This document shows, piece by piece, positions 4,390 through 21,695 of a DNA stretch of 64,000 nucleotides. The stretch is from assembly GCF_041886205.1 (NCBI RefSeq), contig NZ_CP169029.1. One strand, written 5' to 3'. Made by a program: the position numbers and the translations under genes. The notes below the pieces were generated by a model that was not told the DNA's origin, ran no database searches, and saw nothing but the letters and a program-made list of their open reading frames with translations. The stretch is from Escherichia coli (lineage in GTDB: Bacteria > Pseudomonadota > Gammaproteobacteria > Enterobacterales > Enterobacteriaceae). Each line of letters starts with the position of its first letter. The stretch's first letter is position 1.

Positions 4390-4680
4390 CCACGACTGAC
4401 TGAAGAACTGCGTGCTCAGGGTTACCACTTCAACGTAAAACCGTGGCAGGAGGTCCGGACTGAAAAAACTGCTCAGGACATTATCGGCAGGGTACGCACT
4501 GGTAGTCTGTAAACTGAACCGACTGGGGCGCAGTATGTGGCATCTTGTCGTGCTGTTGGAGGAGCTGTGCGAACGTGGTATTAACTTTCGTGCTCTGGCC
4601 CAATCTATATTTGCCCAACAATGGGGGGACGGAAGCTGTAAAAGTAAAACAATCTGCGATCTCAGAGTTATTGTGTGATT
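4390..4680 (+). pseudogene. pinH: Serine invertase (Pin/Hin family) fragment, pinH-like pseudogene
   Basis: Translation KLNRLGRSMWHLVVLLEELCERGINFRALAQSI matches the resolvase/invertase catalytic-domain core; frameshifted upstream, no intact N-terminus or HTH. Confidence 0.7.
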
Positions 4681-5007
4681 TTTATGTGAGCAGAAGATAT
4701 TCATCAGAAACGATTATGTAAATCATTTTATTTTGCCGACTGCCTGATTGTCGAAAGAAAAGAATACGCCCGGGTTTCCTGAATAGATTGACTTTTTTAT
4801 CCAACCACACTTCAGCGCACTGCGTTTAAAAAATGCCTCATTCTTATGCGGAATATCATCATTTCATCATGATGTCTTTGATGAGCGGTGAACACAATAC
4901 ACTTGCGCTGTCTCTTCAGGATGAATCCCCTGGTCTGGTGCCTGTGGGCTGATGTTGCAGCAAAGCTAAGGTCGCTTAAACGCTACTCAGTATTCACTTT
5001 TCAGAGG

Positions 5008-8000
5008 ATGAAATTTATGAACAGGACCAGTCCCTATTATTTTCGCCGCTCAGTACTTTCCTTATTGATATCTGCCCTGATATATGCTCCGCCCGGGATG
5101 GCGGCCTTTACTACTAATGTTATTGGTGTGGTAAATGATGAGACTGTAGATGGCAACCAACGAGTAGATGAACGAGGTACAACAAATAACACTCATATTA
5201 TCAACCATGGCCAGCAGAGTGTTTATGGCGGAGTATCTAATGGAAGTATTATTGAATCGGGTGGATATCAAGATGTTGGAAGGAATAACAATTATATGGG
5301 GCAGTCTAATAATACAACCATTAACGGAGGAAGACAGACAATTCATGACGGGGGCATTTCCACCGGTACGATAATCGACAGTGGCAATCAGGACGTTTAT
5401 ACAGGTGGTATCAGCAATGGAACGACAATTAAGGGTGGTAATTCACACATAAGTGGGGGGACTGCGAATGGAACAATCATTGATGGTGGCAGCCAACGAG
5501 TAACAACGCAGGGGCATGTTGACAGTACAACGATAAATAAGTCTGGCTCTCAGGACATCACGCAAGGAAGTCTGGCGACGAACACAATCATAAATGGTGG
5601 ACGACAGTATGTTGAACAGAGCACAGTAGGAACAACCACCATTAAAAATGGCGGTGAGCAAAGAGTATATGAAAGCCATGCGCTGGACACGACGATTGAA
5701 GGTGGAACTCAGTCTCTGAATAATAAGTCAACGGCAAAAAATACTCAGATCTATTCTGGTGGTACGCAAATTGTTGATAACACCAGCACCTCGGATGTTA
5801 TTGAAGTTTATTCCGGTGGCGTGCTTGATGTTAGTGGTGGTACGGCAACAAATGTTACCCAGCACGATGGTGCAATTTTAAAAACAAACACTAACGGTAC
5901 GACGGTGAACGGTACGAATAGTGAAGGTGCATTCTCCATCCACAATCACGTGGCAGACAATGTGTTGCTGGAAAACGGTGGTCATTTAGACATAAACGCA
6001 TATGGTTCGGCAAACAAGACTATTATCAAAGATAAAGGAACAATGTCAGTTTTAACCAATGCTAAAGCTGATGCGACCCGAATAGATAACGGCGGGGTAA
6101 TGGATGTTGCCGGAAACGCGACCAATACCATAATTAATGGTGGCACACAGAATATTAATAATTATGGCATAGCCACGGGAACCAATATCAACAGCGGAAC
6201 GCAAAATATCAAGAGCGGCGGGAAAGCTGACACGACAATTATATCCTCCGGGAGCCGGCAGGTTGTTGAGAAAGATGGTACGGCAACTGGCAGCAATATT
6301 AGCGCCGGAGGCTCGCTGATTGTCTATACCGGCGGTATTGCACATGGGGTTAACCAGGAGACGGGCAGTGCTTTAGTTGCCAACACGGGTGCAGGGACTG
6401 ATATCGAAGGATACAACAAGCTCTCTCACTTCACTATTACCGGAGGGGAGGCTAATTATGTTGTGCTGGAAAATACCGGCGAACTGACGGTAGTGGCTAA
6501 AACCTCGGCGAAAAATACTACCATTGATACTGGCGGTAAGCTGATTGTCCAGAAGGAGGCTAAAACAGATAGCACCAGACTTAATAATGGCGGCGTTCTG
6601 GAGGTTCAGGACGGTGGTGAGGCTAAGCATGTTGAGCAACAATCCGGCGGCGCATTAATTGCTTCCACGACCTCCGGAACACTTATCGAAGGAACCAACA
6701 GTTATGGTGATGCTTTCTACATCAGGAATTCAGAAGCTAAAAATGTAGTGCTGGAAAACGCTGGCTCATTAACAGTCGTCACTGGTTCCCGGGCAGTTGA
6801 TACGATTATTAATGCCAATGGCAAAATGGATGTTTATGGAAAAGATGTTGGCACTGTACTTAATAGTGCTGGCACCCAAACAATATATGCCAGTGCCACT
6901 TCTGATAAAGCAAATATCAAAGGTGGCAAGCAAACGGTATATGGTTTAGCCACTGAAGCAAATATCGAAAGTGGTGAACAAATTGTTGATGGTGGGTCAA
7001 CAGAGAAAACACACATCAATGGTGGCACGCAAATCGTTCAGAATTATGGTAAGGCAATCAATACCGATATCGTCTCTGGCCTACAACAAATTATGGCAAA
7101 CGGGACAGCGGAAGGTTCCATTATTAATGGGGGTTCACAGGTAGTTAATGAGGGCGGTCTGGCTGAAAACTCGGTGCTTAATGACGGCGGCACACTCGAT
7201 GTGCGGGAGAAAGGCAGCGCAACGGGGATACAGCAGAGTAGCCAGGGCGCTTTGGTTGCAACCACCAGGGCGACGCGGGTCACAGGAACACGCGCGGATG
7301 GCGTCGCGTTCAGCATCGAGCAGGGTGCGGCGAACAATATCCTGCTGGCAAATGGCGGCGTGTTAACCGTGGAGTCAGACACCTCTTCTGACAAAACACA
7401 GGTCAATATGGGCGGACGGGAGATCGTCAAAACAAAAGCCACTGCGACAGGCACGACGCTCACCGGCGGTGAACAAATTGTCGAGGGTGTGGCGAATGAG
7501 ACAACAATTAACGACGGCGGAATACAAACAGTTTCAGCTAACGGAGAGGCAATAAAAACAAAGATCAATGAAGGCGGTACGCTGACAGTCAACGATAATG
7601 GCAAAGCGACAGATATCGTCCAGAACAGCGGTGCCGCTCTCCAGACGAGCACGGCTAACGGTATTGAAATCAGCGGTACTCACCAGTACGGTACTTTTTC
7701 CATTTCCGGCAATTTAGCGACCAATATGTTGCTGGAAAATGGCGGTAATTTATTGGTATTAGCAGGTACCGAAGCTCGCGACTCCACGGTTGGCAAGGGT
7801 GGGGCAATGCAAAACCTGGGTCAGGACTCCGCCACAAAGGTTAACTCTGGCGGGCAATATACCCTTGGGCGGTCAAAAGATGAGTTTCAGGCTCTGGCCC
7901 GGGCAGAAGATCTCCAGGTCGCTGGCGGTACGGCAATCGTCTACGCAGGTACGCTGGCGGATGCATCGGTCAGTGGCGCGACAGGAAGCCTGTCGTTAAT

Positions 8001-9597
8001 GACGCCACGGGATAATGTTACGCCAGTTAAACTCGAAGGGGCGGTCCGGATTACCGATAGCGCGACATTGACTCTGGGAAATGGCGTCGATACCACGCTT
8101 GCCGACCTGACGGCTGCCAGCCGGGGCAGTGTCTGGCTTAACAGCAATAATTCCTGTGCAGGTACCAGCAACTGCGAATATAGAGTAAACAGTTTGCTAC
8201 TCAACGACGGTGATGTTTATTTGTCAGCACAAACAGCAGCGCCTGCCACAACTAACGGTATCTACAATACGCTGACAACCAATGAACTTTCCGGTAGCGG
8301 TAATTTCTACCTGCATACCAACGTTGCAGGCTCCCGGGGCGATCAACTGGTCGTCAACAACAACGCCACTGGTAATTTTAAAATCTTTGTTCAGGATACC
8401 GGCGTCAGCCCACAGTCTGACGACGCGATGACGCTGGTGAAAACAGGGGGAGGGGATGCTTCGTTTACGCTGGGCAATACCGGCGGTTTCGTTGATCTTG
8501 GGACCTATGAGTATGTCCTGAAAAGTGACGGCAACAGCAACTGGAACCTGACCAATGATGTCAAACCCAACCCGGACCCCATCCCAAATCCAAAGCCAGA
8601 CCCAAAACCCGATCCAAAGCCAGACCCAAATCCAAAACCAGACCCTACTCCCGATCCAACGCCGACACCCGTTCCGGAGAAACGCATTACGCCTTCTACG
8701 GCAGCCGTACTCAATATGGCAGCAACATTACCGTTGGTATTTGATGCTGAGCTAAACAGTATTCGCGAGCGGTTGAACATAATGAAAGCGAGTCCACACA
8801 ACAATAATGTCTGGGGGGCGACGTATAACACCCGTAATAATGTCACCACCGATGCGGGTGCCGGGTTTGAGCAGACGCTGACCGGAATGACAGTGGGGAT
8901 CGACAGCCGTAATGATATTCCTGAAGGAATTACCACGCTAGGCGCTTTTATGGGCTATTCCCATTCACATATCGGTTTTGATCGCGGAGGACATGGCAGT
9001 GTGGGCAGTTATTCTCTGGGCGGCTATGCCAGTTGGGAACATGAAAGTGGTTTCTATCTGGACGGTGTCGTGAAGCTGAACCGTTTTAAAAGTAACGTAG
9101 CAGGTAAAATGAGCAGCGGTGGAGCCGCCAATGGCAGTTACCACAGCAACGGGCTGGGCGGTCACATTGAAACCGGGATGCGATTTACCGATGGTAACTG
9201 GAACCTGACGCCGTATGCATCGTTAACGGGGTTCACCGCTGATAACCCCGAATATCATTTATCCAATGGCATGGAATCGAAATCAGTCGATACCCGCAGT
9301 ATATATCGTGAACTGGGTGCAACGCTGAGTTACAACATGCGTCTGGGGAACGGTATGGAAGTTGAGCCGTGGCTGAAGGCGGCTGTGCGCAAAGAATTTG
9401 TCGATGATAACCGGGTGAAGGTGAATAATGACGGTAATTTCGTCAATGATTTGTCGGGCAGACGTGGAATATACCAGGCAGGTATTAAAGCCTCATTCAG
9501 TAGTACGTTAAGCGGGCATCTCGGGGTGGGGTATAGCCATGGTGCCGGTGTGGAATCACCGTGGAACGCGGTGGCTGGTGTGAACTGGTCGTTCTGA
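5008..9597 (+). CDS. ypjA: Large adhesin-like autotransporter (ypjA-like); start assigned to the signal-peptide Met, ORF opens at 4888
   Basis: Signal peptide (MKFMNRTSPYYFRRSVLSLLISALIYAPPGMAA), long passenger of about 19-residue Gly/Thr/Asn-rich repeats, Pro-Asp-Lys linker, C-terminal beta-barrel ending VNWSF. Confidence 0.85.
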   Translation: MKFMNRTSPYYFRRSVLSLLISALIYAPPGMAAFTTNVIGVVNDETVDGNQRVDERGTTNNTHIINHGQQSVYGGVSNGSIIESGGYQDVGRNNNYMGQSNNTTINGGRQTIHDGGISTGTIIDSGNQDVYTGGISNGTTIKGGNSHISGGTANGTIIDGGSQRVTTQGHVDSTTINKSGSQDITQGSLATNTIINGGRQYVEQSTVGTTTIKNGGEQRVYESHALDTTIEGGTQSLNNKSTAKNTQIYSGGTQIVDNTSTSDVIEVYSGGVLDVSGGTATNVTQHDGAILKTNTNGTTVNGTNSEGAFSIHNHVADNVLLENGGHLDINAYGSANKTIIKDKGTMSVLTNAKADATRIDNGGVMDVAGNATNTIINGGTQNINNYGIATGTNINSGTQNIKSGGKADTTIISSGSRQVVEKDGTATGSNISAGGSLIVYTGGIAHGVNQETGSALVANTGAGTDIEGYNKLSHFTITGGEANYVVLENTGELTVVAKTSAKNTTIDTGGKLIVQKEAKTDSTRLNNGGVLEVQDGGEAKHVEQQSGGALIASTTSGTLIEGTNSYGDAFYIRNSEAKNVVLENAGSLTVVTGSRAVDTIINANGKMDVYGKDVGTVLNSAGTQTIYASATSDKANIKGGKQTVYGLATEANIESGEQIVDGGSTEKTHINGGTQIVQNYGKAINTDIVSGLQQIMANGTAEGSIINGGSQVVNEGGLAENSVLNDGGTLDVREKGSATGIQQSSQGALVATTRATRVTGTRADGVAFSIEQGAANNILLANGGVLTVESDTSSDKTQVNMGGREIVKTKATATGTTLTGGEQIVEGVANETTINDGGIQTVSANGEAIKTKINEGGTLTVNDNGKATDIVQNSGAALQTSTANGIEISGTHQYGTFSISGNLATNMLLENGGNLLVLAGTEARDSTVGKGGAMQNLGQDSATKVNSGGQYTLGRSKDEFQALARAEDLQVAGGTAIVYAGTLADASVSGATGSLSLMTPRDNVTPVKLEGAVRITDSATLTLGNGVDTTLADLTAASRGSVWLNSNNSCAGTSNCEYRVNSLLLNDGDVYLSAQTAAPATTNGIYNTLTTNELSGSGNFYLHTNVAGSRGDQLVVNNNATGNFKIFVQDTGVSPQSDDAMTLVKTGGGDASFTLGNTGGFVDLGTYEYVLKSDGNSNWNLTNDVKPNPDPIPNPKPDPKPDPKPDPNPKPDPTPDPTPTPVPEKRITPSTAAVLNMAATLPLVFDAELNSIRERLNIMKASPHNNNVWGATYNTRNNVTTDAGAGFEQTLTGMTVGIDSRNDIPEGITTLGAFMGYSHSHIGFDRGGHGSVGSYSLGGYASWEHESGFYLDGVVKLNRFKSNVAGKMSSGGAANGSYHSNGLGGHIETGMRFTDGNWNLTPYASLTGFTADNPEYHLSNGMESKSVDTRSIYRELGATLSYNMRLGNGMEVEPWLKAAVRKEFVDDNRVKVNNDGNFVNDLSGRRGIYQAGIKASFSSTLSGHLGVGYSHGAGVESPWNAVAGVNWSF

Positions 9598-9607
9598 CCA
9601 TCAACGA

Positions 9608-9630
9608 AAAAGCCCACATCTGTGGGCTTT
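9608..9630 (+). terminator. Hairpin downstream of ypjA (AAAGCCCACA-tctg-TGTGGGCTTT)
   Basis: Perfect 10-bp inverted repeat 11 nt after the stop codon; weak U-tract. Confidence 0.4.
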
Positions 9631-9760
9631 CATGTTACCAGGAGCCGCGGCTCTTTTGCGTATCCTGTTTTGTCTCCTCACCGTCTGGTCGGTGTCCTGC
9701 TGAGGCTGCTAACTTCCTGTTTTTGTTGGTGTTGTCCTTACACCGTCCAATCATGATTGG

Positions 9761-9771
9761 GCTGGCGGAGT
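9761..9771. other. Putative distal att core (imperfect repeat of ssrA 3' end)
   Basis: GCTGGCGGAGT resembles GCTGGCGGGAGT at the tmRNA 3' end (window 21340-21351); short and imperfect. Confidence 0.3.
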
Positions 9772-9825
9772 CTGAATAACATTTGCAACATAATGTTTTT
9801 ATTGTTTATTTTCCAATTCAACTTT

Positions 9826-9853: not shown

Positions 9854-9937
9854 GCGATTTGTTGCAATGATTCCTGTGGTTAAGCGAACTTGTTGTTGAA
9901 TAGCTCACATCAAGAAAAAAACTTTTTTTACGGAAAA

Positions 9938-10030
9938 CTGTTCACACTGTTCACTCGCCATTATTTGTCTTTAATTTCAATGTGATATACGGTGAATAGT
10001 CCGTGAACAGTGAACACTTTACTGTTCACT
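9938..10030. repeat. Cluster of TGTTCAC iterons (P4 ori-like, alpha-binding type)
   Basis: At least five copies of TGTTCAC/GTGAACA in both orientations just downstream of the alpha gene. Confidence 0.6.
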
Positions 10031-10040
10031 TTCCGGGATT

Positions 10041-10079: not shown

Positions 10080-12413
10080 TTATGTCGCGGTGGTTTCGTC
10101 GCACCGGGGCAGCCAGTCGGCGTTGCTTTCCTCCCTGAGCGCAAGGTTCGTCTGCATCCCCTGATTTGTTCGCCGCCTGGCGTAATTCAGCCCGTACTCT
10201 TTCAGCATCGATGACAGCCCTTTGCCGAACATGGTCAGGCTGAGGGTGTTCTTGTAGCCGTGCGCCTCCATGTAAACCAGATAGGCGTGATACAGGTACA
10301 GGCGCGGCTGTCGCGGGATGATATTCGCATTCCCCATGTACATACCGTCAGGCTCGGGCAGCGCCTCCAGATAGCCACAAAAATCGAATGTCGGGTCAGC
10401 GTCGCGCTTGATGCTGAGTGCCTCGTCGGAGTTCTGCTGCGACTGGAGCAGTGTGCGCGCGGTCATCGGGTCGCTGAACGTCTGCATAAGCTGACGCACG
10501 ATGACGGCCAGCTCGCGGGCAATTTTATCTTTCAGCTTCGGGTCACGCTCCTCCGGGGCAATCTGTTCCGGGAAGTGCATTATCACCCGGCGACGCGACA
10601 CGCCGCCGCTGCGGTCGGTGAAGCGCATCGGATTGTTGTTTACGGCCAGTATCACCGCCGGAATATGGGTGGAGTACGCATCGCGGTATTTCGGGTCAAC
10701 CGAGACCGCATCCCCGCCGGTGATGGCCTTGAGTCCTGCCCCGTCACCGCTCCATTTCTCCTGGTCAGGCAGACGTATCAGCGAGAAGCCAATCAGCGCC
10801 GCGCGCTCGCGGGGGGATTCCAGCGTTTCGATAGTCGCTGACGTGGCGTTATCTTCCCCGGCGAGCATGGTCGCTATTTCGGCCAGAATACTTTTCCCGC
10901 TGCCACCGGGACCGGTCACTTCGAGGAAGAGCTGCCAGTCGTAGCGGTTCGCCAGCACCATAAACAGCGCGGCGAGTATCACGTCACGTTTATCGGCACG
11001 CGAACCGGCGGCGCGGTCGAGCCAGCGCCAGAAATTCGGCGCGTGCGTCTCCAGCGTTTCCCCCTCCACCGGCGGGGTGAAATCCACGTCGCACAGGGTG
11101 CGCAGCCAGTGCGTTTTGCTGTGCGGGCTGAATATACCGGTACTGGTATCAAGCACGCCGTTGCGAAAGCCAATCAGCCGCCGTGGCGGGGCATCCTGCT
11201 GCGGAATAATCAGTTTCAGGGTGTCCACCACCGAGGCAATTTTCCCCGACGAAAACGGGGCGCGCAGACGCTGGAACAGCCCGGCCACGTCGCGCGCAAA
11301 GTCTGACGGCGGAATGATTTTCCATATACCGGCTTCATAGCGGGACAGGAGCTGCCCGTTCGCATCCACCGCCAGCGCTTCGCCGTAATGCTCATGCACC
11401 CGCATGGCTTTCTCACTGGTGCTCATGGCGGTAAATTCCGCCTCGCTCATGGTAGAGAAAGGGCTTTCAGCCGGTGGCCGGATGGCGTCATACATGGCTT
11501 TACGCGTGGCCTCCCCACCGTGCTGTGTATACGCATCATTCCAGTCACCGAACACCGGCGGCAGGGCGACCACGCCCTCACAGGACTCTGCGGCCGCAGA
11601 CGCTTTGGTCTGGCCGTCGCCGTTAAGGTCACGGTCGGCGGCAATGACAATCCGGCAGGCCGGGTATTTGTGACGGGCAAGGCTCGCCAGAGAAAGGAGG
11701 TTCACCGACGACAGCGCCACCATGACGGTTTCGCCGGTCAGGTGATGCACGGTGAGCGCGGTCGCGTAGCCCTCCGCTATCCACAGCCGTTTTCCCGCCT
11801 CTTTTTTCCCGTCGAGAATATGACATGTCCCTTTTACCTGCCCCCCTTTCAGGGTGCGCTTGAGACCGTCCGCGTTAATGAGCTGGACGTTAACCAGTGC
11901 GCCGCTATCGTCATACAGCGGGACAACCACATCCCCGGCACGGTACGTCACACCGCCGGTTTTGTGCATGGCCGTCAGTACCTGACATTCCCGGCCGGGA
12001 AAGCCCTTGCGGGTGAGGTAGGCGTTGCCGGTGGCCGGTTGGGTTTTCTCCATCAGTCTGGCGGCCAGCGCGGCCGCCGCTTTGCGGTCGGCCTCCGTTT
12101 CAGCGTCTGCGGCCGCAGTCACCGCCGGGGATACCGGAGGCAGGTTGCCGGTCACGGCGTTCACCTTCCCGGCCGCCTCTGACGGGGTCACGCCGAACAC
12201 TTTCTCAACCAGTTTCAGACCGTCCCCCGCGCCGCACTGGTTACAGAACCACGTCCCGCGTCCCTCCTTATCGTCAAAGCGAAAGCGGTCGGAGCCGCCA
12301 CACACCGGACAGGCCTGATGACGGTTTTTGATGACCGTTACCCCCAGCGCCGGGAGAATGCGCGGCCAGTGGCCGCACGCCTGTTTCACGGTGTCCGTTA
12401 CGTTCATTTTCAT
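10080..12413 (-). CDS. P4 alpha-like primase-helicase (777 aa)
   Basis: N-terminal zinc-binding cysteine pairs (CPVCGG ... CNQCG), central primase region, Walker A (GPGGSGKS) helicase domain; size identical to P4 alpha. Confidence 0.9.
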   Translation of the reverse strand: MKMNVTDTVKQACGHWPRILPALGVTVIKNRHQACPVCGGSDRFRFDDKEGRGTWFCNQCGAGDGLKLVEKVFGVTPSEAAGKVNAVTGNLPPVSPAVTAAADAETEADRKAAAALAARLMEKTQPATGNAYLTRKGFPGRECQVLTAMHKTGGVTYRAGDVVVPLYDDSGALVNVQLINADGLKRTLKGGQVKGTCHILDGKKEAGKRLWIAEGYATALTVHHLTGETVMVALSSVNLLSLASLARHKYPACRIVIAADRDLNGDGQTKASAAAESCEGVVALPPVFGDWNDAYTQHGGEATRKAMYDAIRPPAESPFSTMSEAEFTAMSTSEKAMRVHEHYGEALAVDANGQLLSRYEAGIWKIIPPSDFARDVAGLFQRLRAPFSSGKIASVVDTLKLIIPQQDAPPRRLIGFRNGVLDTSTGIFSPHSKTHWLRTLCDVDFTPPVEGETLETHAPNFWRWLDRAAGSRADKRDVILAALFMVLANRYDWQLFLEVTGPGGSGKSILAEIATMLAGEDNATSATIETLESPRERAALIGFSLIRLPDQEKWSGDGAGLKAITGGDAVSVDPKYRDAYSTHIPAVILAVNNNPMRFTDRSGGVSRRRVIMHFPEQIAPEERDPKLKDKIARELAVIVRQLMQTFSDPMTARTLLQSQQNSDEALSIKRDADPTFDFCGYLEALPEPDGMYMGNANIIPRQPRLYLYHAYLVYMEAHGYKNTLSLTMFGKGLSSMLKEYGLNYARRRTNQGMQTNLALREESNADWLPRCDETTAT

Positions 12414-13073: not shown

Positions 13074-13523
13074 TTACAGATAACGGCGGTAGCTGTTATC
13101 CGGTTTTATTTCCGTTTCCAGCCTGAAATTATTCCGCCATTTATGCGCCACCGGCGCCGGGCGTTTAACCGGGGGAATATCATCAGGATAGTTATCGATA
13201 TTCCGCGCCCGGTATTGCTGTAATGCCGGGTCGGCCGCTATTTCGCGTAATACGGCGTGGCGGTTTTCAGGGTTGCGCTTAAATACATCGGGATGCTCAC
13301 AGGTAAAGTCCCGCAAAAAACGACTGAGCGGAATTTCTGCCATACGGCCACCGGCAATAATACGAATGAGGATGGTGTAGGTGCGCCGGTAAGGGTTCCA
13401 GACCAGCCCCGGACAGCGGTACGGCATATCCCACGGAATACCGTCGGCCAGCACGCCCGACACCACCACATCAGGAAATCCTGTACAGCGATATGTTTCG
13501 CCCGGCTGAGGGAAATCAAACAT
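13074..13523 (-). CDS. P4 orf151-like protein (149 aa)
   Basis: Position and size match P4 orf151 upstream of alpha; GGAGG before ATG. Confidence 0.5.
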   Translation of the reverse strand: MFDFPQPGETYRCTGFPDVVVSGVLADGIPWDMPYRCPGLVWNPYRRTYTILIRIIAGGRMAEIPLSRFLRDFTCEHPDVFKRNPENRHAVLREIAADPALQQYRARNIDNYPDDIPPVKRPAPVAHKWRNNFRLETEIKPDNSYRRYL

Positions 13524-13815
13524 GGTGCTCCCCTCCGTTTCCCGACGTCGTGGCGAGAAAGTCACGGCACAGGCCTTTGGCTTTCAGCTCTTCCAGGACG
13601 TAGCTGACGTCCTCATGGATATAACTAAAAATCTGCGGCAGGTATAGCTGGTGTAAACCGTTCAGCTCACGGCGCAGCAAATCTCCACCGATGAACTGCG
13701 AGACGGCGCTGGCGCGATTGAGTTTATGGTACGCCTCAATGCTGAGGTGTTCCTGCATGGGGTTAAGGTCATCACGACGCGCTGAGATGGTCTGAGGGGT
13801 GTTTTTATTATGCAT
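13516..13815 (-). CDS. Small protein (99 aa), position of P4 epsilon
   Basis: In-frame Met inside a longer ORF; overlaps neighbours by 8 nt; position equivalent to epsilon. Confidence 0.45.
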
Positions 13816-14005: not shown

Positions 14006-14403
14006 AAGGCAACCTCCTTCGAGTAGCAAATTATTGCTATCGCCGGAGTTCTCACGCTCAGTGGCGATAGCCCAGACGGGGGTGAGAATACCGGCCTCGA
14101 AGAATACCGGCCAGCCCGAGGGCTGCCCCGCCTGAGCTACCATTGACATGACAGCATGATATGCGATTGCGGACAGGAGACACAAAGTGACGTCTGCACG
14201 ACGATCCGCACACCACGCCATTATCTGGCGCTCTGTGGCGTTAGTTGCGACACAAAAAAAGACGCATGGCGCGTCTGGTGTCGCCTTCGAGTTACTCGGG
14301 TTCTCACGCCCGGTTACCGATTTTGCGGCAACAGCAAAACTGTACCAGGAAACACACAACGGATGCAAGCCAGAAAAAGGGGCTTTGTGAAATCGGCTCT
14401 GAT

Positions 14404-14670
14404 TCATGCGTCGTATTTCCGGTTGCGGTGCGCGACACGTTCTTCCATCCATGCCGTGATTTCAGACTGTAGCCAGGCGACATTTTTACCCCCGAGGGAA
14501 ACCTGCGCCGGGAAAGCGTTACGGGCGATTAAATCGTAGAGCGTGGAGCGGGACAGGCCGCACTGATGAATGACTTCCGGGAGACGTAAAAAACGTTCCT
14601 GAGTCGGGGCTGAAACCGGCATCGGGTGCGCGGCAGTGGGGGACGGTGGTGCTGATGAAACTGTGTGCAT
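14404..14670 (-). CDS. Vis/AlpA-family transcriptional regulator (start may be internal Met at 14622)
   Basis: [28 protein letters not shown] is an AlpA-type HTH; 88 aa as for P4 Vis; divergent from sid. Confidence 0.7.
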
Positions 14671-14944: not shown

Positions 14945-15050
14945 CAGTGAACAGTAGTGAACAGTTGGTGAACACTTTTCTCTCAACTGTTCACTCTTTA
15001 ATTTATTGTTTTATTTATATTTTTATACTGAGTGAACAGTAGTGAATAGT
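14945..15050. repeat. Second TGTTCAC iteron cluster in the divergent vis/sid control region (crr-like)
   Basis: Six copies of GTGAACA/TGTTCAC in an AT-rich intergenic region about 5 kb from the first cluster. Confidence 0.5.
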
Positions 15051-15218
15051 TATATGTAAAAAAACAAATAGAGTGAGGGGTTTTCCTGCGACCTTTCTCT
15101 GGCCAGCCGGGTTTTTAAGTCCTGTTTGTGCCATGTCTGCGACAACGGCAATGAATCGAGTTGTTGTCTGAGGGACGGCAGAATGGCGTCAGGTTGAAAA
15201 CACAGAGAGAACCCGACG

Positions 15219-16022
15219 ATGAAACCAGATTTGTTTACCGCAGTAATGAAAACCATCGGCAGCACGCAGGATGAGAACATCCGCACGGCCATTGACAGCG
15301 CACTGGATACCCTTAACGAGAAAGCAAACCAGAACGCAGAGGCCACGATAAATAATGCGCTTGAGGCATTCAGCAAGGCCAAATCCGCGCACACGGAAAA
15401 TATGCTGAAACTGAATGATATTGATGCGGCCATTACCCGCAGTGAGAAAGAGCGTCAGAACGCCCTGAATGAAAGTGCCGAAGCGGAACAGAACTGGCGT
15501 ACCCGTTTTCGCGAACTGCGCGGCATGATGACCCCGGAACTGAAAGCCGAACACAGTCAGCGAGTGGCCGGTCGGGAGCTGGCGGAGGAATTCACCGCCC
15601 TGATTGATGAGCTCAACGATGATAAAGCCAGTACCATGCTGGCCGCCTGTACATCAGGAGATAAGTACGTCGGCACGCATTTTACGGTGTTCTCTGCCTA
15701 CTCCCGGAATGAGTGGGCGACCGTGATGAAAGACATCCCTCCCTCACTGGTGCGCGCATTTGCGTTACGTCTGCGTGAACTCGAAATGAAAGGAGAAGAA
15801 CACCCTCACAACGTTCTCATTCAGGAACTGGGGGAGAATGTACTGGCGCAAAGCAGGTACTACACATTCAACATGGCGCAGGAGCCGGTAATTTCAAAAA
15901 TTGGGCTTCACCGTCCGGCACTCACCGGCGTGGATATGAAACTCTATAAAAGCCCGGTTCTCAGAATGGCGCGGGCTAAAGAGCTGGCACAGAAGAAAAA
16001 ATCGCGGGGGGTTAAGCCATGA
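15219..16022 (+). CDS. sid: Sid-like capsid size-determination (external scaffold) protein
   Basis: Similarity to P4 Sid (NWRTRFRELRGMMTPELKAEHSQRVAGRELAEEF); first gene of sid-delta-psu. Confidence 0.75.
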   Translation: MKPDLFTAVMKTIGSTQDENIRTAIDSALDTLNEKANQNAEATINNALEAFSKAKSAHTENMLKLNDIDAAITRSEKERQNALNESAEAEQNWRTRFRELRGMMTPELKAEHSQRVAGRELAEEFTALIDELNDDKASTMLAACTSGDKYVGTHFTVFSAYSRNEWATVMKDIPPSLVRAFALRLRELEMKGEEHPHNVLIQELGENVLAQSRYYTFNMAQEPVISKIGLHRPALTGVDMKLYKSPVLRMARAKELAQKKKSRGVKP

Positions 16023-16261
16023 TGCGCTGTCCGTACTGCAAACAGGCTGCCCATGTCCGTACCAGCCGTTACCTGTCGGATAACGTCAAACAGAGCTACC
16101 TCCAGTGCGTGAATGTCTTTTGCTCCGCAACCTTTCGCACCACCGAGTCTATCGACGAGGTAATACGGCCACCGGCAGAAGAAAAGCCCGAACCGCCGCA
16201 GACAGTACCAGAAACACCGCCCCGAATTCTGGACTGCGCCCGGTCATCGCTGCGCCACTGA
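16019..16261 (+). CDS. Delta/Ogr-type zinc-finger late transcription activator
   Basis: MMRCPYCKQAAHVRTSRYLSDNVKQSYLQCVNVFCSATF with C-x2-C ... C-x4-C pattern typical of P2 Ogr/P4 Delta; 4-nt overlap with sid. Confidence 0.85.
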   Translation: MMRCPYCKQAAHVRTSRYLSDNVKQSYLQCVNVFCSATFRTTESIDEVIRPPAEEKPEPPQTVPETPPRILDCARSSLRH

Positions 16262-16277: not shown

Positions 16278-16853
16278 ATGGCACGAGCACTACTGGAACA
16301 GGCCTTTGAAACCTGTCAGAAGAATAAATCGGACTGGGTGAGCAGCAAGTCAGCACTGGCGCGGGCTGAAATGGCGCTGAAAGAGCTGGAGCTGACCTGC
16401 ACCCGTTATGAACCGGAGGCCGCACAGGCGCTGCGGGATGATATTGACCTGAAAAAATGGGCGGTAAATCAGTCGGCCGGGCAGTACATCCGGTCACATG
16501 AGGCCGTGCAGCGTATCAGTATCCGGCGTCAGCTCCACGCCTTTATGCAGGTAAGCGGCGACGCGCTGGCCGCCGCACTGGCACCGGAATTAATGCATCT
16601 CTGCGAACAACCTGACATTGTCAGAGAACGGGCTCTCGACCGGGCGGCCGCCAGTGTTCGCGAAGCGCTGTCCGTTTATGTAACCCGCGGAGGAAATATT
16701 GATTACGCAGAGGATGATCGCGACATTCTGACAACCATCGGTTTCCGGCCTGACAGAGCATCGAGAGACGACAACCGGGCAAAATATACGCCTGAACAGA
16801 GTCAGATTTTCATGCGCCGACAGGCCGCGCAGACCCGCAAAAAATCCGCATAA
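16278..16853 (+). CDS. psu: Psu-like polarity suppression / capsid decoration protein
   Basis: KWAVNQSAGQYIRSHEAVQRISIRRQL and ALAAALAPEL and DILTTIGFRPD match P4 Psu; 191 aa. Confidence 0.85.
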   Translation: MARALLEQAFETCQKNKSDWVSSKSALARAEMALKELELTCTRYEPEAAQALRDDIDLKKWAVNQSAGQYIRSHEAVQRISIRRQLHAFMQVSGDALAAALAPELMHLCEQPDIVRERALDRAAASVREALSVYVTRGGNIDYAEDDRDILTTIGFRPDRASRDDNRAKYTPEQSQIFMRRQAAQTRKKSA

Positions 16854-17017
16854 AACGCCCCGAAAATACCCGTCTTTTTAATAAAAATAGCCATGCATGC
16901 CTACGCTGCATGGCTTTGCATGCAAAAACCTGAATTTTCCACACCCCGCCGCACCAGCACTGGCGCGGCCTGAGTCCCTTCATGCGCCTGCATTAAAAGT
17001 GCCCCACGAAGCGGGCA

Positions 17018-17036
17018 GGCGTGGCGGGGAGAGCAT
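17018..17036. other. cos-like cohesive-end site
   Basis: GGCGTGGCGGGGAGAGCAT matches 16 of 19 positions of the P2/P4 cohesive end as I recall it; lies after psu as in integrated P4. Confidence 0.45.
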
Positions 17037-17113
17037 TGCGCGCCAAGCGATATATAATTAATTAATGAAGAAGGATAGAATTAACCATATAGCCATAAAA
17101 AAGGATGCGGGTG

Positions 17114-18685
17114 ATGAAGGCGAGTGATATGCAGCACTTATGTAATATAGCCAGAGAGCTTGTTTCTGATGGCAAGTTTGAAAAGGCGTATGAGTTCACG
17201 TTGCAGATTTATAAATCCCTTGACGAAAATATCTTTGGGGATAATTACTATATACTTCTTTATAATATGGCTGCGAATTTTGTTGATATAGGAGGAATGC
17301 AACCGAATAAAGAGGCTTCTCTGCTAGGCTATAACTTAATGAATGAGCACTTTGACTCTTTTTCTAAAATTATGGATGAATCTACGCTCTATTATAACCT
17401 AGCAAACGCAAAGTCAAACTTGGTTGAAAAAGGCAGTGTTTTTAAACAAACGTTTACAACAATTGAGGATATGGTGGATGTAAAAAATTTATACTGGAAG
17501 GCATTTAAATTACTCGGTGATGATAATACTATATATAGCAAAGAACTGAAGGTCAATTTAGCAAACTCACTCAAGCAACAGTTTAGAGTTGTAGAGTCTA
17601 TTTCATATTATGATGATGTTATTTCCTCGGGGGAAGATATACCGCAAGCATGGATTAACAGGTCTGAAGCCTTAATGCTATTGCTGCAACTCTCTGGTTC
17701 TCATACTATAAAGCATATAAGAGAGATTAGACTTGGATATATGAAAGCAATTGAATCAACAGAGATGCCACCGCCATGGAAACCACACTTTCAATCACGT
17801 GCTGAAAAACTCACGGAAGATATAATCGAAATGTCGGGAAAACCATTTTTTGAAAAAGAAGATGAGCTTGATGAAAAACAGACGCTAGAAGAATATAGCA
17901 AACTTAATAATTATCAAAAATTCGTTTTAGATAACCACTTTGTTCTTTCTGAGCATGGGGTGTATTGTCCTTGCGTAGTTGGGGCTAAAGATAACCTAAC
18001 AATATTACCAACACATAATGATGTTTCTGGTGATTTTATTATTCCCATGGAAATGGTTTTGAATAGGCTAAAGTCTGAATATGCTTTGGCAAGGCGCTCG
18101 TTATTCGAGTATGAGTACATGGAGGAAGTTGATGATGTGGCCTGTTATTCAGAGTTGTATAACGATGAAGTTTTAAATGTTGGTGTTGAGAAGATAAGAA
18201 ATGCATTTCGTATATGTTTTGGTGTGTTAGATAAAATAGCTATTGCAATATGTGAGTTATACGATGTTTATCCAGCCAATAAAATAGTGTACTTTGAAAA
18301 TTTTTGGCAATTAAACCAAAATGGGCGAAGGGATAAGTTTGAAGAAATAAAAACTCCAGCTTTACTGGCTTTATATAGTCTAGCTACTGACCTAAATGAT
18401 AGAAAGAATGGTGAATTATCCTTTTATAAGGATTGGAGAAATGATTTGGAACATAATATAGTGATCGTTCATAAAGATTGCGAGCCTTTAGATATATATA
18501 ATTCCTACGGTTACATGAAGAATATTAGGTTGATATCGGAGTCTGATTTTACTAGACATTTTAAAGTGTTATTGCAAATAGTACGCTCAGCAATTTTTCT
18601 TTTTACCTTTATGGTAAGAGAAGAGGGGGGTAAAAGTAACAAGGATTCATTTTTGATATCAAACTCACTAGATTGGAAAATATGA
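17114..18685 (+). CDS. Cargo protein A (523 aa): TPR-like N-terminal half, C-terminal Rx4H HEPN-like motif; function unknown, candidate defence protein
   Basis: AT-rich ORF with AAGGA 8 nt before ATG at 17114 (ORF opens at 17105); helical repeat-like N-terminus; motif WRNDLEHN near C-terminus; lies in the cos/psu-int variable slot. Confidence 0.7.
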   Translation: MKASDMQHLCNIARELVSDGKFEKAYEFTLQIYKSLDENIFGDNYYILLYNMAANFVDIGGMQPNKEASLLGYNLMNEHFDSFSKIMDESTLYYNLANAKSNLVEKGSVFKQTFTTIEDMVDVKNLYWKAFKLLGDDNTIYSKELKVNLANSLKQQFRVVESISYYDDVISSGEDIPQAWINRSEALMLLLQLSGSHTIKHIREIRLGYMKAIESTEMPPPWKPHFQSRAEKLTEDIIEMSGKPFFEKEDELDEKQTLEEYSKLNNYQKFVLDNHFVLSEHGVYCPCVVGAKDNLTILPTHNDVSGDFIIPMEMVLNRLKSEYALARRSLFEYEYMEEVDDVACYSELYNDEVLNVGVEKIRNAFRICFGVLDKIAIAICELYDVYPANKIVYFENFWQLNQNGRRDKFEEIKTPALLALYSLATDLNDRKNGELSFYKDWRNDLEHNIVIVHKDCEPLDIYNSYGYMKNIRLISESDFTRHFKVLLQIVRSAIFLFTFMVREEGGKSNKDSFLISNSLDWKI

Positions 18686-18814
18686 AAACATTACGTTGCA
18701 AGTATATCTTGTATTCGTTCAACTTTGACCTGACACACCTCTGGCACAAAGCCCCAATCTCATAGGCGGTTCTATGCCAGGGGCTGAAAGTCTGTCTCTG
18801 GTAACATACACTTA

Positions 18815-19801
18815 TTATGTTATATTGAGGAAATCTGGGATATTAGCTGGTTCAAGGTCAAAAATATATTTAATGATTCCGGCTTTTAGGTTCTCCTCAA
18901 TTCCTTTCCTGAAATCTAGAATACTTGAGATTGTTGCATCATGTTGTAAATGATGTCGCCAGTGAACATCTTTTTCTCGACTATGAAAAGATAACAATCG
19001 GGTTAGAGCCATATGTGCGAACATTCCTGATTGTTCATCGATTGTATAATGGGCAACCACGTGGGAATCAGAATATGATTCTTTCGTAGAAAGATCCCAA
19101 GAATGAAATAATTGCTGAGCAATTGGTGATAGATCCCTTATTTGTTCATTTCTTCCGTTAGTGAAGTAAACATCATCTATGACGGTATGCCAGTTTTCTT
19201 GTGTCCCTTCATCTGTTTCAATGGTTTCAATAATATTTTCTTTCTTGAAACTTATATGAACACCTGAATTAACTTGTGGAGTGTAGGTGAAGTCACCTAA
19301 AACTTTACTCATTAAGCTATTACGCATTGCATCATTGAAATTAAGATTGAAATTTGTTTTTGCCTTTGTAAATAAATCTAGATCTACCAGGCTCCAAATT
19401 CCATGTCTTCTCCAGGCAATTAAAACGGGCAGCCCTAATAATTGGCCGTAAGCTCTTAATCTGGACACGTAATCTGGACGAAAAGACAAAACATTTCCCA
19501 TGTAAGATTTAACTTCAATCAAAACAGTAGTCTTGCCTGCGCCACGCACATTAAAATTTGCTAGTAAATCTGGAACCTGAAAAGTCTTGTTAGAAGTAGT
19601 TGGATACTGCTGTTGATCCAATTTATGGACTAGGTTGCATTGACCTAGCCAACCACAGATAATCGAAAACTCGTCTTCTAACGGGAGGCCAATATTAAGT
19701 CTATTTACACGTTCAGCGATAGCCTTAGCGTCAGCCTCCCAACCCAGTTGCTCTAGAGATTCATGTATAAGTCTCTCTAAATCTGTCGGCTTATCTTTCA
19801 A
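18815..19801 (-). CDS. Cargo protein B (328 aa): putative PD-(D/E)xK-fold nuclease; function unknown, candidate defence protein
   Basis: AT-rich ORF; VPDLL ... 16 residues ... VLIEVKS fits the PD-(D/E)xK spacing; convergent with protein A. Confidence 0.7.
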   Translation of the reverse strand: MKDKPTDLERLIHESLEQLGWEADAKAIAERVNRLNIGLPLEDEFSIICGWLGQCNLVHKLDQQQYPTTSNKTFQVPDLLANFNVRGAGKTTVLIEVKSYMGNVLSFRPDYVSRLRAYGQLLGLPVLIAWRRHGIWSLVDLDLFTKAKTNFNLNFNDAMRNSLMSKVLGDFTYTPQVNSGVHISFKKENIIETIETDEGTQENWHTVIDDVYFTNGRNEQIRDLSPIAQQLFHSWDLSTKESYSDSHVVAHYTIDEQSGMFAHMALTRLLSFHSREKDVHWRHHLQHDATISSILDFRKGIEENLKAGIIKYIFDLEPANIPDFLNIT

Positions 19802-19960: not shown

Positions 19961-21148
19961 TTAATGATTTACTTTATCTCCCCACCAATCCATCAACTCA
20001 ACTCTTTGAAGTAAATAAGTTGAACGGTTGTAAGCTTTTCGAACTTCATTTTTGTCTGAGTGTGCTAATGCTGCTTCAATAACATCAGAATTAAATCCGG
20101 CTTCATTGAGTGCAGTACTTGCGATGGACCGTAACCCGTGAGCAACTAATTTCCCACCATAACCAATACGCTTAAGTGCGGCATTAGCAGTCTGACTATT
20201 CATTGGTTGCTTAGGGTTATTTCTGCTGGGAAAAACATGTTCACGGTGAGCGCTGATTGGTTTCATCACTTCCAGAATATCTAACGCCTGAGGAGATAGT
20301 GGGACTATGTGCTCACGCTTAGCTTTCATCCGTTCGGCAGGAATTGTCCAGAGCTTTGCATCAAGATCGATCTCTGCCCACCGGGTACTGGAAGCCTCAG
20401 AAGGGCGCACAAGGGTCAGGAGTTGCCATTCGATTAGACAGCGAGTCGGAACAGACAGATTTGACATGACTAAAGAACGCATCAGCTTCGGCAATTCTTC
20501 TGGCCGCAACGTCGGCATGTTTTGCTTTTTGGGCTTCTCAAAGGCCATGCCAACACCGGATGCTGGATTGGCATCAATCAGACCAGTGTTTACGGCATAA
20601 ATCATGATTTCGTTAATGCGCTGCACCAGTCGACGTACAGTCTCAAGCGCCCCACGTGCTTTTATTGGCTCAAGGGCTTCAACCAAAGTTCGGGCTTTGA
20701 TTTGCTGAACGGGGATCTCACCGATGGCAGGGAATACATCTTTCTCCAGTGAACGCCAAATGTCTTTTGCGTAATCAGGGGTAACGCTTTTGCTTTTGAG
20801 ATGGAACCAGTTAGCGGCGACCGTTGAAAAAATACTGTCCAGAGCGATTTGCTGCTGTTCCTCTGCAACTTCGGCCTGAATTTGCGGGTCAATTCCGTTG
20901 GCTAACAAGGCAAGGTAATCCGCTCTTAACCCTCGGGCGTCAGCAAGTGAGAGGGCGGGGAAAGCACCTAGCCCCATCATTGTCCGCTGTTTTGTCGCCG
21001 GACGTTGATAACGGAAACGCCAGAGCTTTTTCCCGCTGGTTTTCACTATCAGGAAAAGGCCATCGCCATCATGCAGCGTTAGATCCTTCTCTAACGCTTT
21101 AGCGCGCAGAACTTCGGTGTTGGTCAGGGGGCGTGTTGTCCGTGCCAC
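19961..21148 (-). CDS. int: P4-family integrase (IntA-like) next to ssrA
   Basis: 395 aa; N-terminal LWRFRYQRPATKQRTMMGLGAFPALSLADAR arm-binding-like domain; catalytic C-terminal domain; immediately downstream of tmRNA 3' end. Confidence 0.9.
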   Translation of the reverse strand: MARTTRPLTNTEVLRAKALEKDLTLHDGDGLFLIVKTSGKKLWRFRYQRPATKQRTMMGLGAFPALSLADARGLRADYLALLANGIDPQIQAEVAEEQQQIALDSIFSTVAANWFHLKSKSVTPDYAKDIWRSLEKDVFPAIGEIPVQQIKARTLVEALEPIKARGALETVRRLVQRINEIMIYAVNTGLIDANPASGVGMAFEKPKKQNMPTLRPEELPKLMRSLVMSNLSVPTRCLIEWQLLTLVRPSEASSTRWAEIDLDAKLWTIPAERMKAKREHIVPLSPQALDILEVMKPISAHREHVFPSRNNPKQPMNSQTANAALKRIGYGGKLVAHGLRSIASTALNEAGFNSDVIEAALAHSDKNEVRKAYNRSTYLLQRVELMDWWGDKVNH

Positions 21149-21167: not shown

Positions 21168-21232
21168 ATTGGTATACGCTTTTAGGTATACATCCTACCG
21201 TATACCTAAACGTATACCAATAATCACCGGAT
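21168..21232. repeat. Cluster of GGTATAC motifs incl. CGTATACCTAAACGTATACCAAT; candidate integrase arm sites between int and ssrA
   Basis: Three or more GTATACC/GGTATAC copies; 23-nt block nearly identical to 9832-9852. Confidence 0.45.
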
Positions 21233-21332: not shown

Positions 21333-21695
21333 TGGTGGAGCTGGCGGGAGTTGAACCCGCGTCCGAAATTCCTACGTCCTCGGTACTACATGCTTAGTCA
21401 GTCTTTACATTCGCTTGCCAGCTGCGGACGGACACGCCACTAACAAACTAGCCTGATTAAGTTTTAACGCTTCAACCCCAGGCAGGGCTTCCACGCGATC
21501 TCTTTTGGGTTTGACCTCTCTTGATCCCCGTCCTAAGAGCGGAGGCTAGGGAGAGAGGGCTCTAAGCAGGTTATTAAGCTGCTAAAGCGTAGTTTTCGTC
21601 GTTTGCGACTATTTTTTGCGGCTTTTTACGAGGCCAACCGCCCCTCGGCATGCACCTTGGGTTTCGCAAATCCCGTCGAATCCAGAATCAGCCCC
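21333..21695 (-). ncRNA. ssrA: tmRNA (SsrA), 363 nt
   Basis: Reverse complement begins GGGGCTGATTCTGGATTCGACGGGATTTGCGAAACC and ends GGTTCAACTCCCGCCAGCTCCACCA; ANDENYALAA tag template region present. Confidence 0.95.

What the first reader, a model, noticed from the sequence alone, without database searches (positions are those of the whole stretch)
17018..17036. cos-like site between psu and the cargo genes
GGCGTGGCGGGGAGAGCAT matches the 19-nt P2/P4 cohesive-end sequence as I recall it at 16 of 19 positions and sits exactly where cos lies in an integrated P4 (after psu). A usable cos means a P2-type terminase could package the element and carry the adjacent cargo genes between hosts.
Basis: partly seen in the sequence, partly recalled or inferred. 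Interest (0 to 1): 0.4.

Follow-up and report, generated by a model that had tools for sequence, protein, structure and literature searches.

The report
Packaging (cos) site of P4-like satellite
The 19-base sequence is the genuine DNA-packaging (cos) site of an intact P4-like phage satellite sitting next to the ssrA gene of E. coli, a well-known feature that lets P2/186-type helper phages package the 11.6-kb element together with its two nuclease-type cargo genes.

Summary
Confirmed and ordinary. Window 17018-17036 (+) reads GGCGTGGCGGGGAGAGCAT: 16/19 to the P2/P4 cohesive end and 18/19 to the phage 186 end. It is the only such match in the window (0.01 expected by chance).

It lies inside the complete 55-bp P2-family cos core (16989-17043). 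All conserved blocks are intact: TGCATTAAAA, AAGCGGGCA, the 19-mer and TGCGCGC. The site starts 164 nt after the psu stop codon, the same spacing as in P4.

The surrounding 11.6-kb element is colinear with P4 (crr, alpha, epsilon, CI RNA, vis/alpA, ori, sid, delta, psu). It is integrated at ssrA. P4's gop-beta-cII genes are replaced by two cargo genes between cos and int.

The three "mismatches" are not decay. The exact 19-mer occurs in 106 IMG/VR contigs: 86 P4-like, always after psu, and 19 P2-like, next to the portal gene. It is the commonest allele in a Psu-anchored sample of satellites (52 of 78).

A defence hotspot placed directly next to cos in P4-like satellites was already described (Rousset et al. 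2022).

Side observations:
- G at position 14 is strongly satellite-biased.
- The cargo is an uncharacterised LA2681-type HEPN protein plus an Hjc-like PD-(D/E)xK nuclease, absent from PADLOC.

The parts
17018..17036 (+). 19-nt cohesive-end sequence of cos (GGCGTGGCGGGGAGAGCAT). Staggered nicks at its two ends would give 5' 19-nt overhangs.
   Evidence: 16/19 to P2/P4 and 18/19 to 186. The exact sequence occurs in 106 IMG/VR contigs.
16989..17043 (+). 55-bp P2-family cos core: TGCATTAAAA (16989-16998), 10-nt variable stretch (16999-17008), AAGCGGGCA (17009-17017), 19-mer, TGCGCGC (17037-17043).
   Evidence: 47/55 identical to P2, 46/55 to P4, 48/55 to 186. Mismatches outside the 19-mer fall in the variable stretch and at the R position just before the 19-mer. 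The 55-bp core concept comes from Ziermann & Calendar 1990, as cited in PMC3931495 and PMC5694545.
16948..16988 (+). Conserved left extension of cos, shared by P4-like satellites and 186-like phages. It contains an imperfect inverted repeat, GCCGCACCAG-CA-CTGGCGCGGC (16948-16969).
   Evidence: Column conservation in 66 unique satellite and 68 unique phage sites. BLAST hits of 186-like phages start at window 16947-16954. Its function is inferred only.
16889..16918 (+). Hairpin AGCCATGCA-N9-TGCATGGCT followed by TTT. Likely a terminator of the sid-delta-psu late operon.
   Evidence: 9-bp perfect inverted repeat. The same motif lies downstream of psu in the P4-like sequences printed in Rousset Table S2B. 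The simple terminator scan did not call it.
16278..16853 (+). psu (191 aa)
   Evidence: Pfam Psu, E 3e-69; 50.5% identity to P4 Psu.
16019..16261 (+). delta (80 aa, single Ogr/Delta zinc finger)
   Evidence: Pfam Ogr_Delta, E 6e-18.
15219..16022 (+). sid-like capsid-size scaffold (267 aa)
   Evidence: tblastn to P4 Sid: 28% identity, E 1e-20; 97-98% identity to Sid homologues in other satellites.
14947..15184 (.). P4 ori-like region
   Evidence: blastn to P4 9311-9550, 72% identity.
14404..14670 (-). alpA/vis (88 aa)
   Evidence: Pfam Phage_AlpA, E 6e-19; 64% identity to P4 ORF88.
14060..14147 (-). C4/CI-type immunity RNA. An isrK-like RNA lies at 14255-14332 (-).
   Evidence: Rfam RF01695 at 74.4 bits and RF01394 at 68.1 bits.
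13519..13815 (-). epsilon homologue (helper derepression)
   Evidence: tblastn to P4 epsilon: 67% identity over 95 aa.
10080..12413 (-). alpha primase-helicase (777 aa). A crr-like iteron region lies at 9909-10040.
   Evidence: 84% identity to P4 alpha; Pfam Zn_Ribbon_Prim, Toprim_3, D5_N, Pox_D5.
9759..9776 (.). Degenerate copy of the ssrA 3' end (GGGCTGGCGGAGTCTGAA). Probable distal att boundary, giving an element of about 11.6 kb.
   Evidence: The integrase arm-type repeat GTATACCTAAGCGTATACCAAT at 9831-9852 matches 21200-21221. No exact repeat of 12 bp or more was found, so this boundary is approximate.
17105..18685 (+). Cargo gene 1: TPR-like N-terminus plus C-terminal LA2681-type HEPN domain (526 aa). 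The start is more likely the ATG at 17114, which gives 523 aa.
   Evidence: Pfam PF18733, E 1.5e-35. The RNDLEH (Rx4H) motif is present in the translation. No PADLOC hit. The closest homologue is 90% identical and 523 aa long.
18815..19801 (-). Cargo gene 2: 328-aa protein with an N-terminal Hjc-like PD-(D/E)xK nuclease domain and a beta-rich C-terminal domain of unknown fold.
   Evidence: P77-D78...E96-x-K98 are invariant in 44 homologues. PDB profile hit to Hjc, E 0.003. AF2 pLDDT 84.6. Foldseek match to Hjc, E 2e-6. No Pfam or PADLOC hit.
19961..21148 (-). Tyrosine integrase (395 aa), followed by arm-type repeats at 21171-21218.
   Evidence: Pfam Arm-DNA-bind_3, Phage_int_M, Phage_integrase; 36% identity to P4 Int; repeats.
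21333..21695 (-). ssrA (tmRNA), the integration target
   Evidence: ARAGORN; Rfam RF00023 at 292.8 bits.

Best explanation
Window 17018-17036 is the cohesive-end sequence of a functional-looking cos site belonging to an intact 11.6-kb P4-like satellite integrated at ssrA in Escherichia coli.

The inferred mechanism follows the P4 paradigm. A P2/186-type (Peduoviridae) helper infects or is induced. The satellite excises (Int plus AlpA/Vis), replicates as a circle (alpha, ori, crr) and activates helper late genes (delta, epsilon). Sid redirects the helper capsid protein into small capsids. The helper terminase (P2 gpM/gpP homologues) then recognises the roughly 55-100-bp cos region at 16948-17043 on the circular monomer. 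It nicks both strands 19 nt apart at the borders of 17018-17036 and packages the 11.6-kb DNA.

Because the two cargo genes lie between cos and int, they are carried in every particle. After injection the 19-nt 5' overhangs anneal to recircularise the DNA.

Shown here: sequence identity, position, conservation of all invariant cos blocks, completeness of the satellite, and sharing of the exact 19-mer with P2-like phages. Inferred, not shown: cleavage, packaging and transduction.
For: 1. The 19-mer is 16/19 to P2/P4 and 18/19 to 186. It is the only such match in the window, with 0.01 expected by chance.
2. The full 55-bp core aligns without gaps to the circular junctions of P2, P4 and 186.
3. 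In 66 unique Psu-anchored satellite cos regions, the window agrees with the consensus at every column conserved at 90% or more, except one at -32.
4. The spacing from psu is identical to P4 (164 nt), and homology to the right end of P4 stops one base before the 19-mer.
5. The exact 19-mer occurs in 106 IMG/VR contigs. In 86 it follows psu in a P4-like element. In 19 it lies about 170-200 bp from the portal gene of a P2-like phage, which is that phage's cos position.
6. It is the commonest allele among P4-like satellites (52 of 78).
7. All P4 essential functions are present as intact ORFs or RNAs, and the element is P4-sized at about 11.6 kb.
8. The literature states that P2 and P4 share a core cos signal used by the P2 terminase, and that the P4 hotspot is directly adjacent to cos (PMC9122126).
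Against: There is no experimental evidence for this element.

No deposited, named phage among 50,697 INPHARED records carries the exact 35-nt AAGCGGGCA + 19-mer + TGCGCGC; the best is 34/35, the 186 type. Most potential helpers therefore differ at position 14. Tolerance of that difference is inferred from the natural variation A/T/G at this position. It also rests on my own recollection that P4 (P2-type cos) can use 186 as a helper.

The distal att copy is degenerate, with no exact repeat of 12 bp or more, and the element lies in a tandem island array, so excision efficiency is uncertain. Only one copy of the 120-bp crr repeat is present, against two in P4. No helper prophage is visible in the 64-kb window.
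Confidence: 0.88

Rival explanations
1. The site is a homologous but dead relic. The element would be a cryptic, immobile P4-like remnant (as CP4-57 is often regarded), and the three differences from P2/P4 would abolish terminase cleavage.
For: The att copy at 9759-9776 is degenerate and the element lies in a tandem array of islands at ssrA. No named phage has the identical allele. There is only one crr repeat.
Against: The three differing positions (5, 14, 19) are exactly the positions that vary among bona fide P2-like phage cos sites. The exact allele is found at the cos position of 19 P2-like phages and in 86 satellites. Every invariant block of the 55-bp core is intact. All P4 core genes are full-length.
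Confidence: 0.08
2. The match is a chance G+C-rich similarity with no relation to cos.
For: None beyond the fact that only 16/19 bases match the reference.
Against: The expected number of such matches is 0.01 per window. A further 36 flanking bases align in register with P2, P4 and 186. The position relative to psu is identical to P4.
Confidence: 0.005
3. The conserved hairpin plus T-run on the minus strand (17017-17000, TGCCC-N8-GGGCA then CTTTTAATGC) works mainly as a terminator. It would insulate the late operon from leftward transcription out of the cargo or int side. The cos function would then be secondary or additional.
For: The terminator scan finds it. P2 and P4 have an equivalent CGCCC...GGGCG + TTTTAATGCA.
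Against: The left arm falls in the 10-nt variable stretch and is not complementary in many satellites, for example GCGACCTCTT. The scan finds as many such sites in shuffled sequence (0.9 expected). This reading does not explain conservation of the 19-mer or of TGCGCGC.
Confidence: 0.03

Closest known systems
cos of satellite phage P4 (NC_001609 / X51522)
   Same: Same genomic position, 164 nt after psu and at the border of the non-essential (hotspot) region. The 55-bp core has the same architecture, with 46/55 bases identical. The upstream psu-cos spacer is homologous (66% identity over 563 bp).
   Different: The 19-mer differs at positions 5, 14 and 19. The base before the 19-mer is A rather than G. 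The cargo to the right (HEPN plus PD-(D/E)xK nuclease) replaces gop-beta-cII. The integrase is a different type that targets ssrA instead of leuX.
cos of phage 186 (Eganvirus, NC_001317) and 186-like Yersinia/Escherichia phages
   Same: 18/19 in the cohesive end, with an identical GGGCA left border and TGCGCGCCA right border. About 40 bp of additional homology lies to the left of the core.
   Different: Position 14 is A in 186 and G here. In 186 the portal gene lies to the right of cos; here the cargo does.
cos of phage P2 (NC_001895), 55-bp core of Ziermann & Calendar 1990
   Same: 47/55 identical. TGCATTAAAA, AAGCGGGC, 16/19 of the overhang and TGCGCGC are conserved.
   Different: There is no homology left of TGCATTAAAA, and there are three differences in the overhang.
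P4-like satellite defence hotspot (Rousset et al. 2022, PMC9122126; Moura de Sousa & Rocha 2022, PMC8628076)
   Same: A variable cargo lies directly adjacent to cos, between psu and int. Homology with E. coli relatives ends at window 17043-17045, within about 2 nt of the end of the cos core, and a 97.8%-identical relative carries SIR2 there instead.
   Different: This cargo pair has no PADLOC model and was not found in 5,426 complete E. coli genomes by megablast. Defence activity is untested.

Membership tests
P2-family cos site | 19-nt G+C-rich cohesive-end sequence of the form GGCGNGGCGGGGANAGCAN | tested here: met
   Window 17018-17036 fits this form. It is 16/19 to P2/P4 and 18/19 to 186.
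P2-family cos site | 55-bp conserved core around the cohesive end (Ziermann & Calendar 1990, as cited in PMC3931495 and PMC5694545) | tested here: met
   16989-17043 aligns without gaps at 46-48/55 identity. The blocks TGCATTAAAA, AAGCGGGCA and TGCGCGC are intact.
P2-family cos site | Canonical location: after psu in satellites, next to the portal gene in helpers | tested here: met
   The site is 164 nt after psu, as in P4. The same 19-mer follows psu in 86 satellite contigs and lies beside the portal gene in 19 phage contigs.
P2-family cos site | Cleavage by P2-type terminase to give 5' 19-nt overhangs, and packaging into helper-derived capsids | not testable with these tools
   This needs virion DNA end mapping or a cos-plasmid transduction assay.
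P4-like satellite | Core gene set: int, alpA, alpha, epsilon, sid, delta, psu | tested here: met
   Pfam hits for Psu, Ogr_Delta, AlpA, the primase domains and the integrase. tblastn to P4 finds alpha at 84%, epsilon 67%, vis 64%, psu 50.5% and sid 28% identity, all colinear.
P4-like satellite | RNA-based immunity (CI/C4 RNA) and ori/crr replication sites | tested here: met
   Rfam C4 at 74.4 bits and isrK at 68.1 bits. Ori-like and crr-like DNA homology is present, with a single crr repeat.
P4-like satellite | Helper-dependent mobilisation | not testable with these tools
Anti-phage defence system in the P4 hotspot | Location between cos/psu and int | tested here: met
   The cargo spans 17105-19801, between cos (ending 17043) and int (from 19961).
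Anti-phage defence system in the P4 hotspot | Match to a known defence-system model | tested here: not met
   No PADLOC-DB 2.0 hit at E <= 0.1 for either protein.
Anti-phage defence system in the P4 hotspot | Demonstrated protection against phage | not testable with these tools
   Only domain content is available: an LA2681-type HEPN domain with Rx4H, and an Hjc-like PD-(D/E)xK nuclease.

The most novel reading that the evidence does not exclude
The G at position 14 of the cohesive end may be a satellite-specific cos allele rather than neutral drift. It occurs in 47 of 63 unique satellite sites but only 2 of 61 unique helper-phage sites, which carry A or T there. No named phage carries the exact allele. 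If this is functional, P4-like satellites would maintain their own cos lineage, one that helper terminases accept or even prefer. That would affect helper range or competition between satellite and helper DNA for packaging. Separately, the cargo pair (LA2681-HEPN plus Hjc-like nuclease) could be one or two undescribed anti-phage genes that shuttle between the cos-adjacent hotspots of P4-like satellites and P2-like phages.
Probability: 0.15. Interest if true: 0.5.

Novelty: new member of a known kind. Interest (0 to 1): 0.15.

Why it matters
The result confirms that this island is a mobilisable P4-like satellite rather than an inert remnant. Its two nuclease-type cargo genes can therefore plausibly spread between enterobacterial hosts in P2/186-type particles. 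This is the established model for the family (Rousset et al. 2022), so the value is annotation: a precisely placed cos, the element boundaries, and the hotspot border about 2 nt after the cos core. The only points that go beyond the textbook are the satellite-biased cos allele and the uncharacterised cargo.

Tried and rejected
1. Covariation in the hairpin left of the 19-mer. The window (TGCCC...GGGCA) and P2/P4 (CGCCC...GGGCG) look compensatory. Across 100+ sites, however, the left arm lies in a freely variable 10-nt stretch that is often not complementary, so I make no structural claim.

2. Exact att direct repeats. No repeat of 12 bp or more exists between the ssrA-proximal junction and the far side. 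Only degenerate copies of the ssrA 3' end were found, at 9759 and 4259, so the element boundary is approximate.

3. Sigma-70 promoter scan of 16700-17300: nothing found.

4. PADLOC on both cargo proteins: no hits.

5. The "HEPN-TPR" P4-hotspot gene tested by Rousset (Table S2B) is a different protein. It does not tell us whether this cargo defends.

6. Search for a named phage with the identical cos allele: none found; the best is 34/35.

Allele frequencies therefore come from samples, not a census.

8. The two-gene-system idea for the cargo is weakened. The 329-aa nuclease occurs without the HEPN gene in a Serratia P2-like prophage. Distant HEPN homologues occur without the nuclease.

Full report
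**Observation.** Window 17018-17036 (+) reads GGCGTGGCGGGGAGAGCAT. P2 annotates its left cohesive end (1-19) as GGCGAGGCGGGGAAAGCAC, and the P4 record begins with the same 19 bases. Allowing three mismatches on both strands, this is the only hit in the 64-kb window; shuffles give 0.01 expected.

**Flanks.** I joined the ends of the linear P2, P4 and 186 records to recreate their circular cos junctions. The window aligns to them without gaps over TGCATTAAAA - 10 variable nt - AAGCGGGC(A/G) - 19-mer - TGCGCGC. [quoted passage not shown] That description is attributed to Ziermann & Calendar 1990 by PMC3931495 and PMC5694545; the original paper is not in the library. In the window the core is 16989-17043, with 47/55 bases identical to P2, 46/55 to P4 and 48/55 to 186.

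Phage 186's annotated cos is GGCGTGGCGGGGAAAGCAT. The window site differs from it only at position 14.

The gap from the psu stop (16853) to the 19-mer is 164 nt, the same as in P4 (11460 to 11624). BLAST homology to the right end of P4 ends at window 17016, which aligns with P4 base 11623.

**The element.** tblastn and blastn against P4 show colinearity across the following:
- a crr-like region (9909-10040);
- alpha (84% identity, 777 aa);
- ORF106 and ORF151 homologues;
- epsilon (67%) and the cI region;
- vis/alpA (64%);
- an ori-like region (14947-15184);
- sid (28%), delta and psu (50.5%).

Pfam confirms Psu, Ogr_Delta, AlpA, the primase-helicase domains and a three-domain tyrosine integrase. 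Rfam finds the C4/CI immunity RNA and an isrK-like RNA.

The integrase (19961-21148, -) abuts ssrA (21333-21695, -) and smpB. The chromosomal flank is 99.7-100% identical to E. coli.

A degenerate copy of the ssrA 3' end lies at 9759-9776, and integrase arm-type GTATAC repeats lie at both ends. These bound an element of about 11.6 kb, the size of P4. No exact att repeat of 12 bp or more exists, so this boundary is approximate.

P4's gop-beta-cII genes are absent. Two other genes lie between cos and int.

Classification by tblastn gave three groups:
- 86 contigs are P4-like, with the site always downstream of psu in the same orientation.
- 19 contigs are P2-like phages, in which the site lies about 170-200 bp from the portal gene. 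That is the phage's own cos position.
- 1 contig is unclassified.

In a Psu-anchored sample of 80 satellite loci, 78 have a cos 19-mer after psu; the other two loci end just past psu. Of those 78, 52 carry exactly the window allele, 15 the P2/P4 allele, 6 GGCGGGGCGGGGAGAGCAT and 2 the 186 allele.

I then computed column conservation over 66 unique satellite and 68 unique phage cos regions. The window matches the satellite consensus at every column conserved at 90% or more except one, at -32. Conservation stops abruptly after TGCGCGC. P4-like satellites and 186-like phages, but not P2, share a further ~40 bp to the left (window 16948-16988).

The positions at which the window differs from P2/P4 (5, 14, 19) are precisely the positions that vary among authentic phage cos sites. 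I conclude that this is a canonical cos of the family, not a remnant.

**Hotspot border and cargo.** Megablast against 5,426 complete E. coli genomes finds relatives of the sid-delta-psu-cos module at up to 97.9% identity. Every alignment stops at window 17043-17045 or earlier, within about 2 nt of the end of the cos core. No genome contains the cargo. One relative, E. coli FG92-1, carries a SIR2 gene and a leuX-type integrase there instead. This is the arrangement described by Rousset et al. [quoted passage not shown] Moura de Sousa & Rocha 2022 describe the same region.

Cargo gene 1 (17105 or 17114 to 18685, +) has a C-terminal LA2681-type HEPN domain (E 1.5e-35) with an Rx4H motif. Homologues are widespread in Proteobacteria, and many are labelled TPR proteins by JGI.

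Cargo gene 2 (18815-19801, -) has no Pfam hit. It does have an invariant PD...ExK motif, a weak profile hit to Hjc, and a confident AF2 model (pLDDT 84.6). The N-terminal domain of that model matches archaeal Hjc resolvases (Foldseek E 2e-6). Neither protein hits PADLOC.

The same gene pair, in the same order, lies between cos and int of another P4-like satellite in a metagenome assembly (L383, about 87% nt identity from cos to int). An 86%-identical copy of the nuclease alone lies between cos and the portal gene of a P2-like prophage of Serratia proteamaculans. Distant HEPN homologues stand alone in islands with AbiEii, Fic and ArdA genes. The two genes are therefore probably independent modules.

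**Mechanism.** By homology with P4, the helper's terminase recognises cos on the excised, replicated circular satellite. It cuts 19 nt apart and fills Sid-remodelled small capsids. The cargo, being inside the 11.6-kb unit, travels with it. [quoted passage not shown]

What is shown here is sequence, position, conservation and completeness. Cleavage and transduction are inferred.

One caveat: no deposited phage record has the identical 35-nt site; the best is 34/35, the 186 type. Most helpers would therefore meet a one-base difference at position 14. Natural A/T/G variation at that position argues it is tolerated. So does my recollection, not checked here, that P4 can be helped by 186 even though their cos sites differ at two positions.

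**Side finding.** Position 14 is G in 47/63 unique satellite sites but in only 2/61 unique phage sites, where it is A in 34 and T in 25 (nominal Fisher p 7e-18). The samples are "best 80" hits of related sequences, so this is indicative only. Near-identical copies of P4 itself (L009, L038) carry the G14 allele joined to a P4-type left flank, which suggests allele exchange within cos.

**Verdict.** The feature is a textbook component of a well-studied family. Interest is low (0.15), and the classification is a new member of a known kind.

Noticed in passing
window 17031 (position 14 of the 19-mer); loci L224-L303 versus L304-L382: The cos allele is split between satellites and helpers. Position 14 is G in 47/63 unique P4-like sites but in 2/61 unique P2-like phage sites, which have A in 34 and T in 25. 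No GenBank phage record carries the exact 35-nt site. The samples are not random, so this is indicative only.
   Followed up: partly
L009 and L038 (IMG/VR contigs 2802429234_000003 and 2778261640_000001): Elements 99% identical to P4 in psu, sid and alpha carry the window-type 19-mer (T5, G14, T19) fused to the P4-type left flank ...GCGGGCG. This suggests allele exchange or gene conversion right at cos.
   Followed up: no
window 17105-19801; L383 6001-8692; L385 5001-5990: The cargo is an LA2681-type HEPN protein (Rx4H intact) plus a 328-aa Hjc-like PD-(D/E)xK nuclease. Neither is in PADLOC, and the pair is absent from 5,426 complete E. coli genomes. The same pair lies in another P4-like satellite (L383). 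The nuclease alone lies between cos and the portal gene of a Serratia P2-like prophage (L385), on the same side of cos and in the same orientation. So the gene is shared by satellite and helper cos-adjacent hotspots.
   Followed up: partly
window 429-9758: More island DNA lies beyond the satellite. It includes a second tyrosine integrase (429-1838, -, 469 aa), a 449-aa ORF (2732-4081) and a 1569-aa autotransporter-like ORF (4888-9597, +). Another degenerate copy of the ssrA 3' end lies at 4259-4273. Together these suggest islands inserted in tandem at ssrA.
   Followed up: no
window 16948-16988: A conserved stretch of about 40 bp lies to the left of the 55-bp cos core. It is shared by P4-like satellites and 186-like phages but not by P2. 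It includes the imperfect inverted repeat GCCGCACCAG-CA-CTGGCGCGGC. It could be an extra terminase or host-factor binding site.
   Followed up: partly
window 9909-10040: Both 120-bp crr repeats of P4 (4291-4410 and 4471-4590) align to a single window segment. This satellite therefore has one crr repeat rather than two.
   Followed up: no
window 16019-16261: Delta is an 80-aa protein with a single Ogr-like zinc finger, whereas P4 Delta is a 166-aa two-domain protein. Sid is only 28% identical to P4 Sid but 97-98% identical to Sid in other IMG/VR satellites, so the late module belongs to a different sub-lineage from P4.
   Followed up: no
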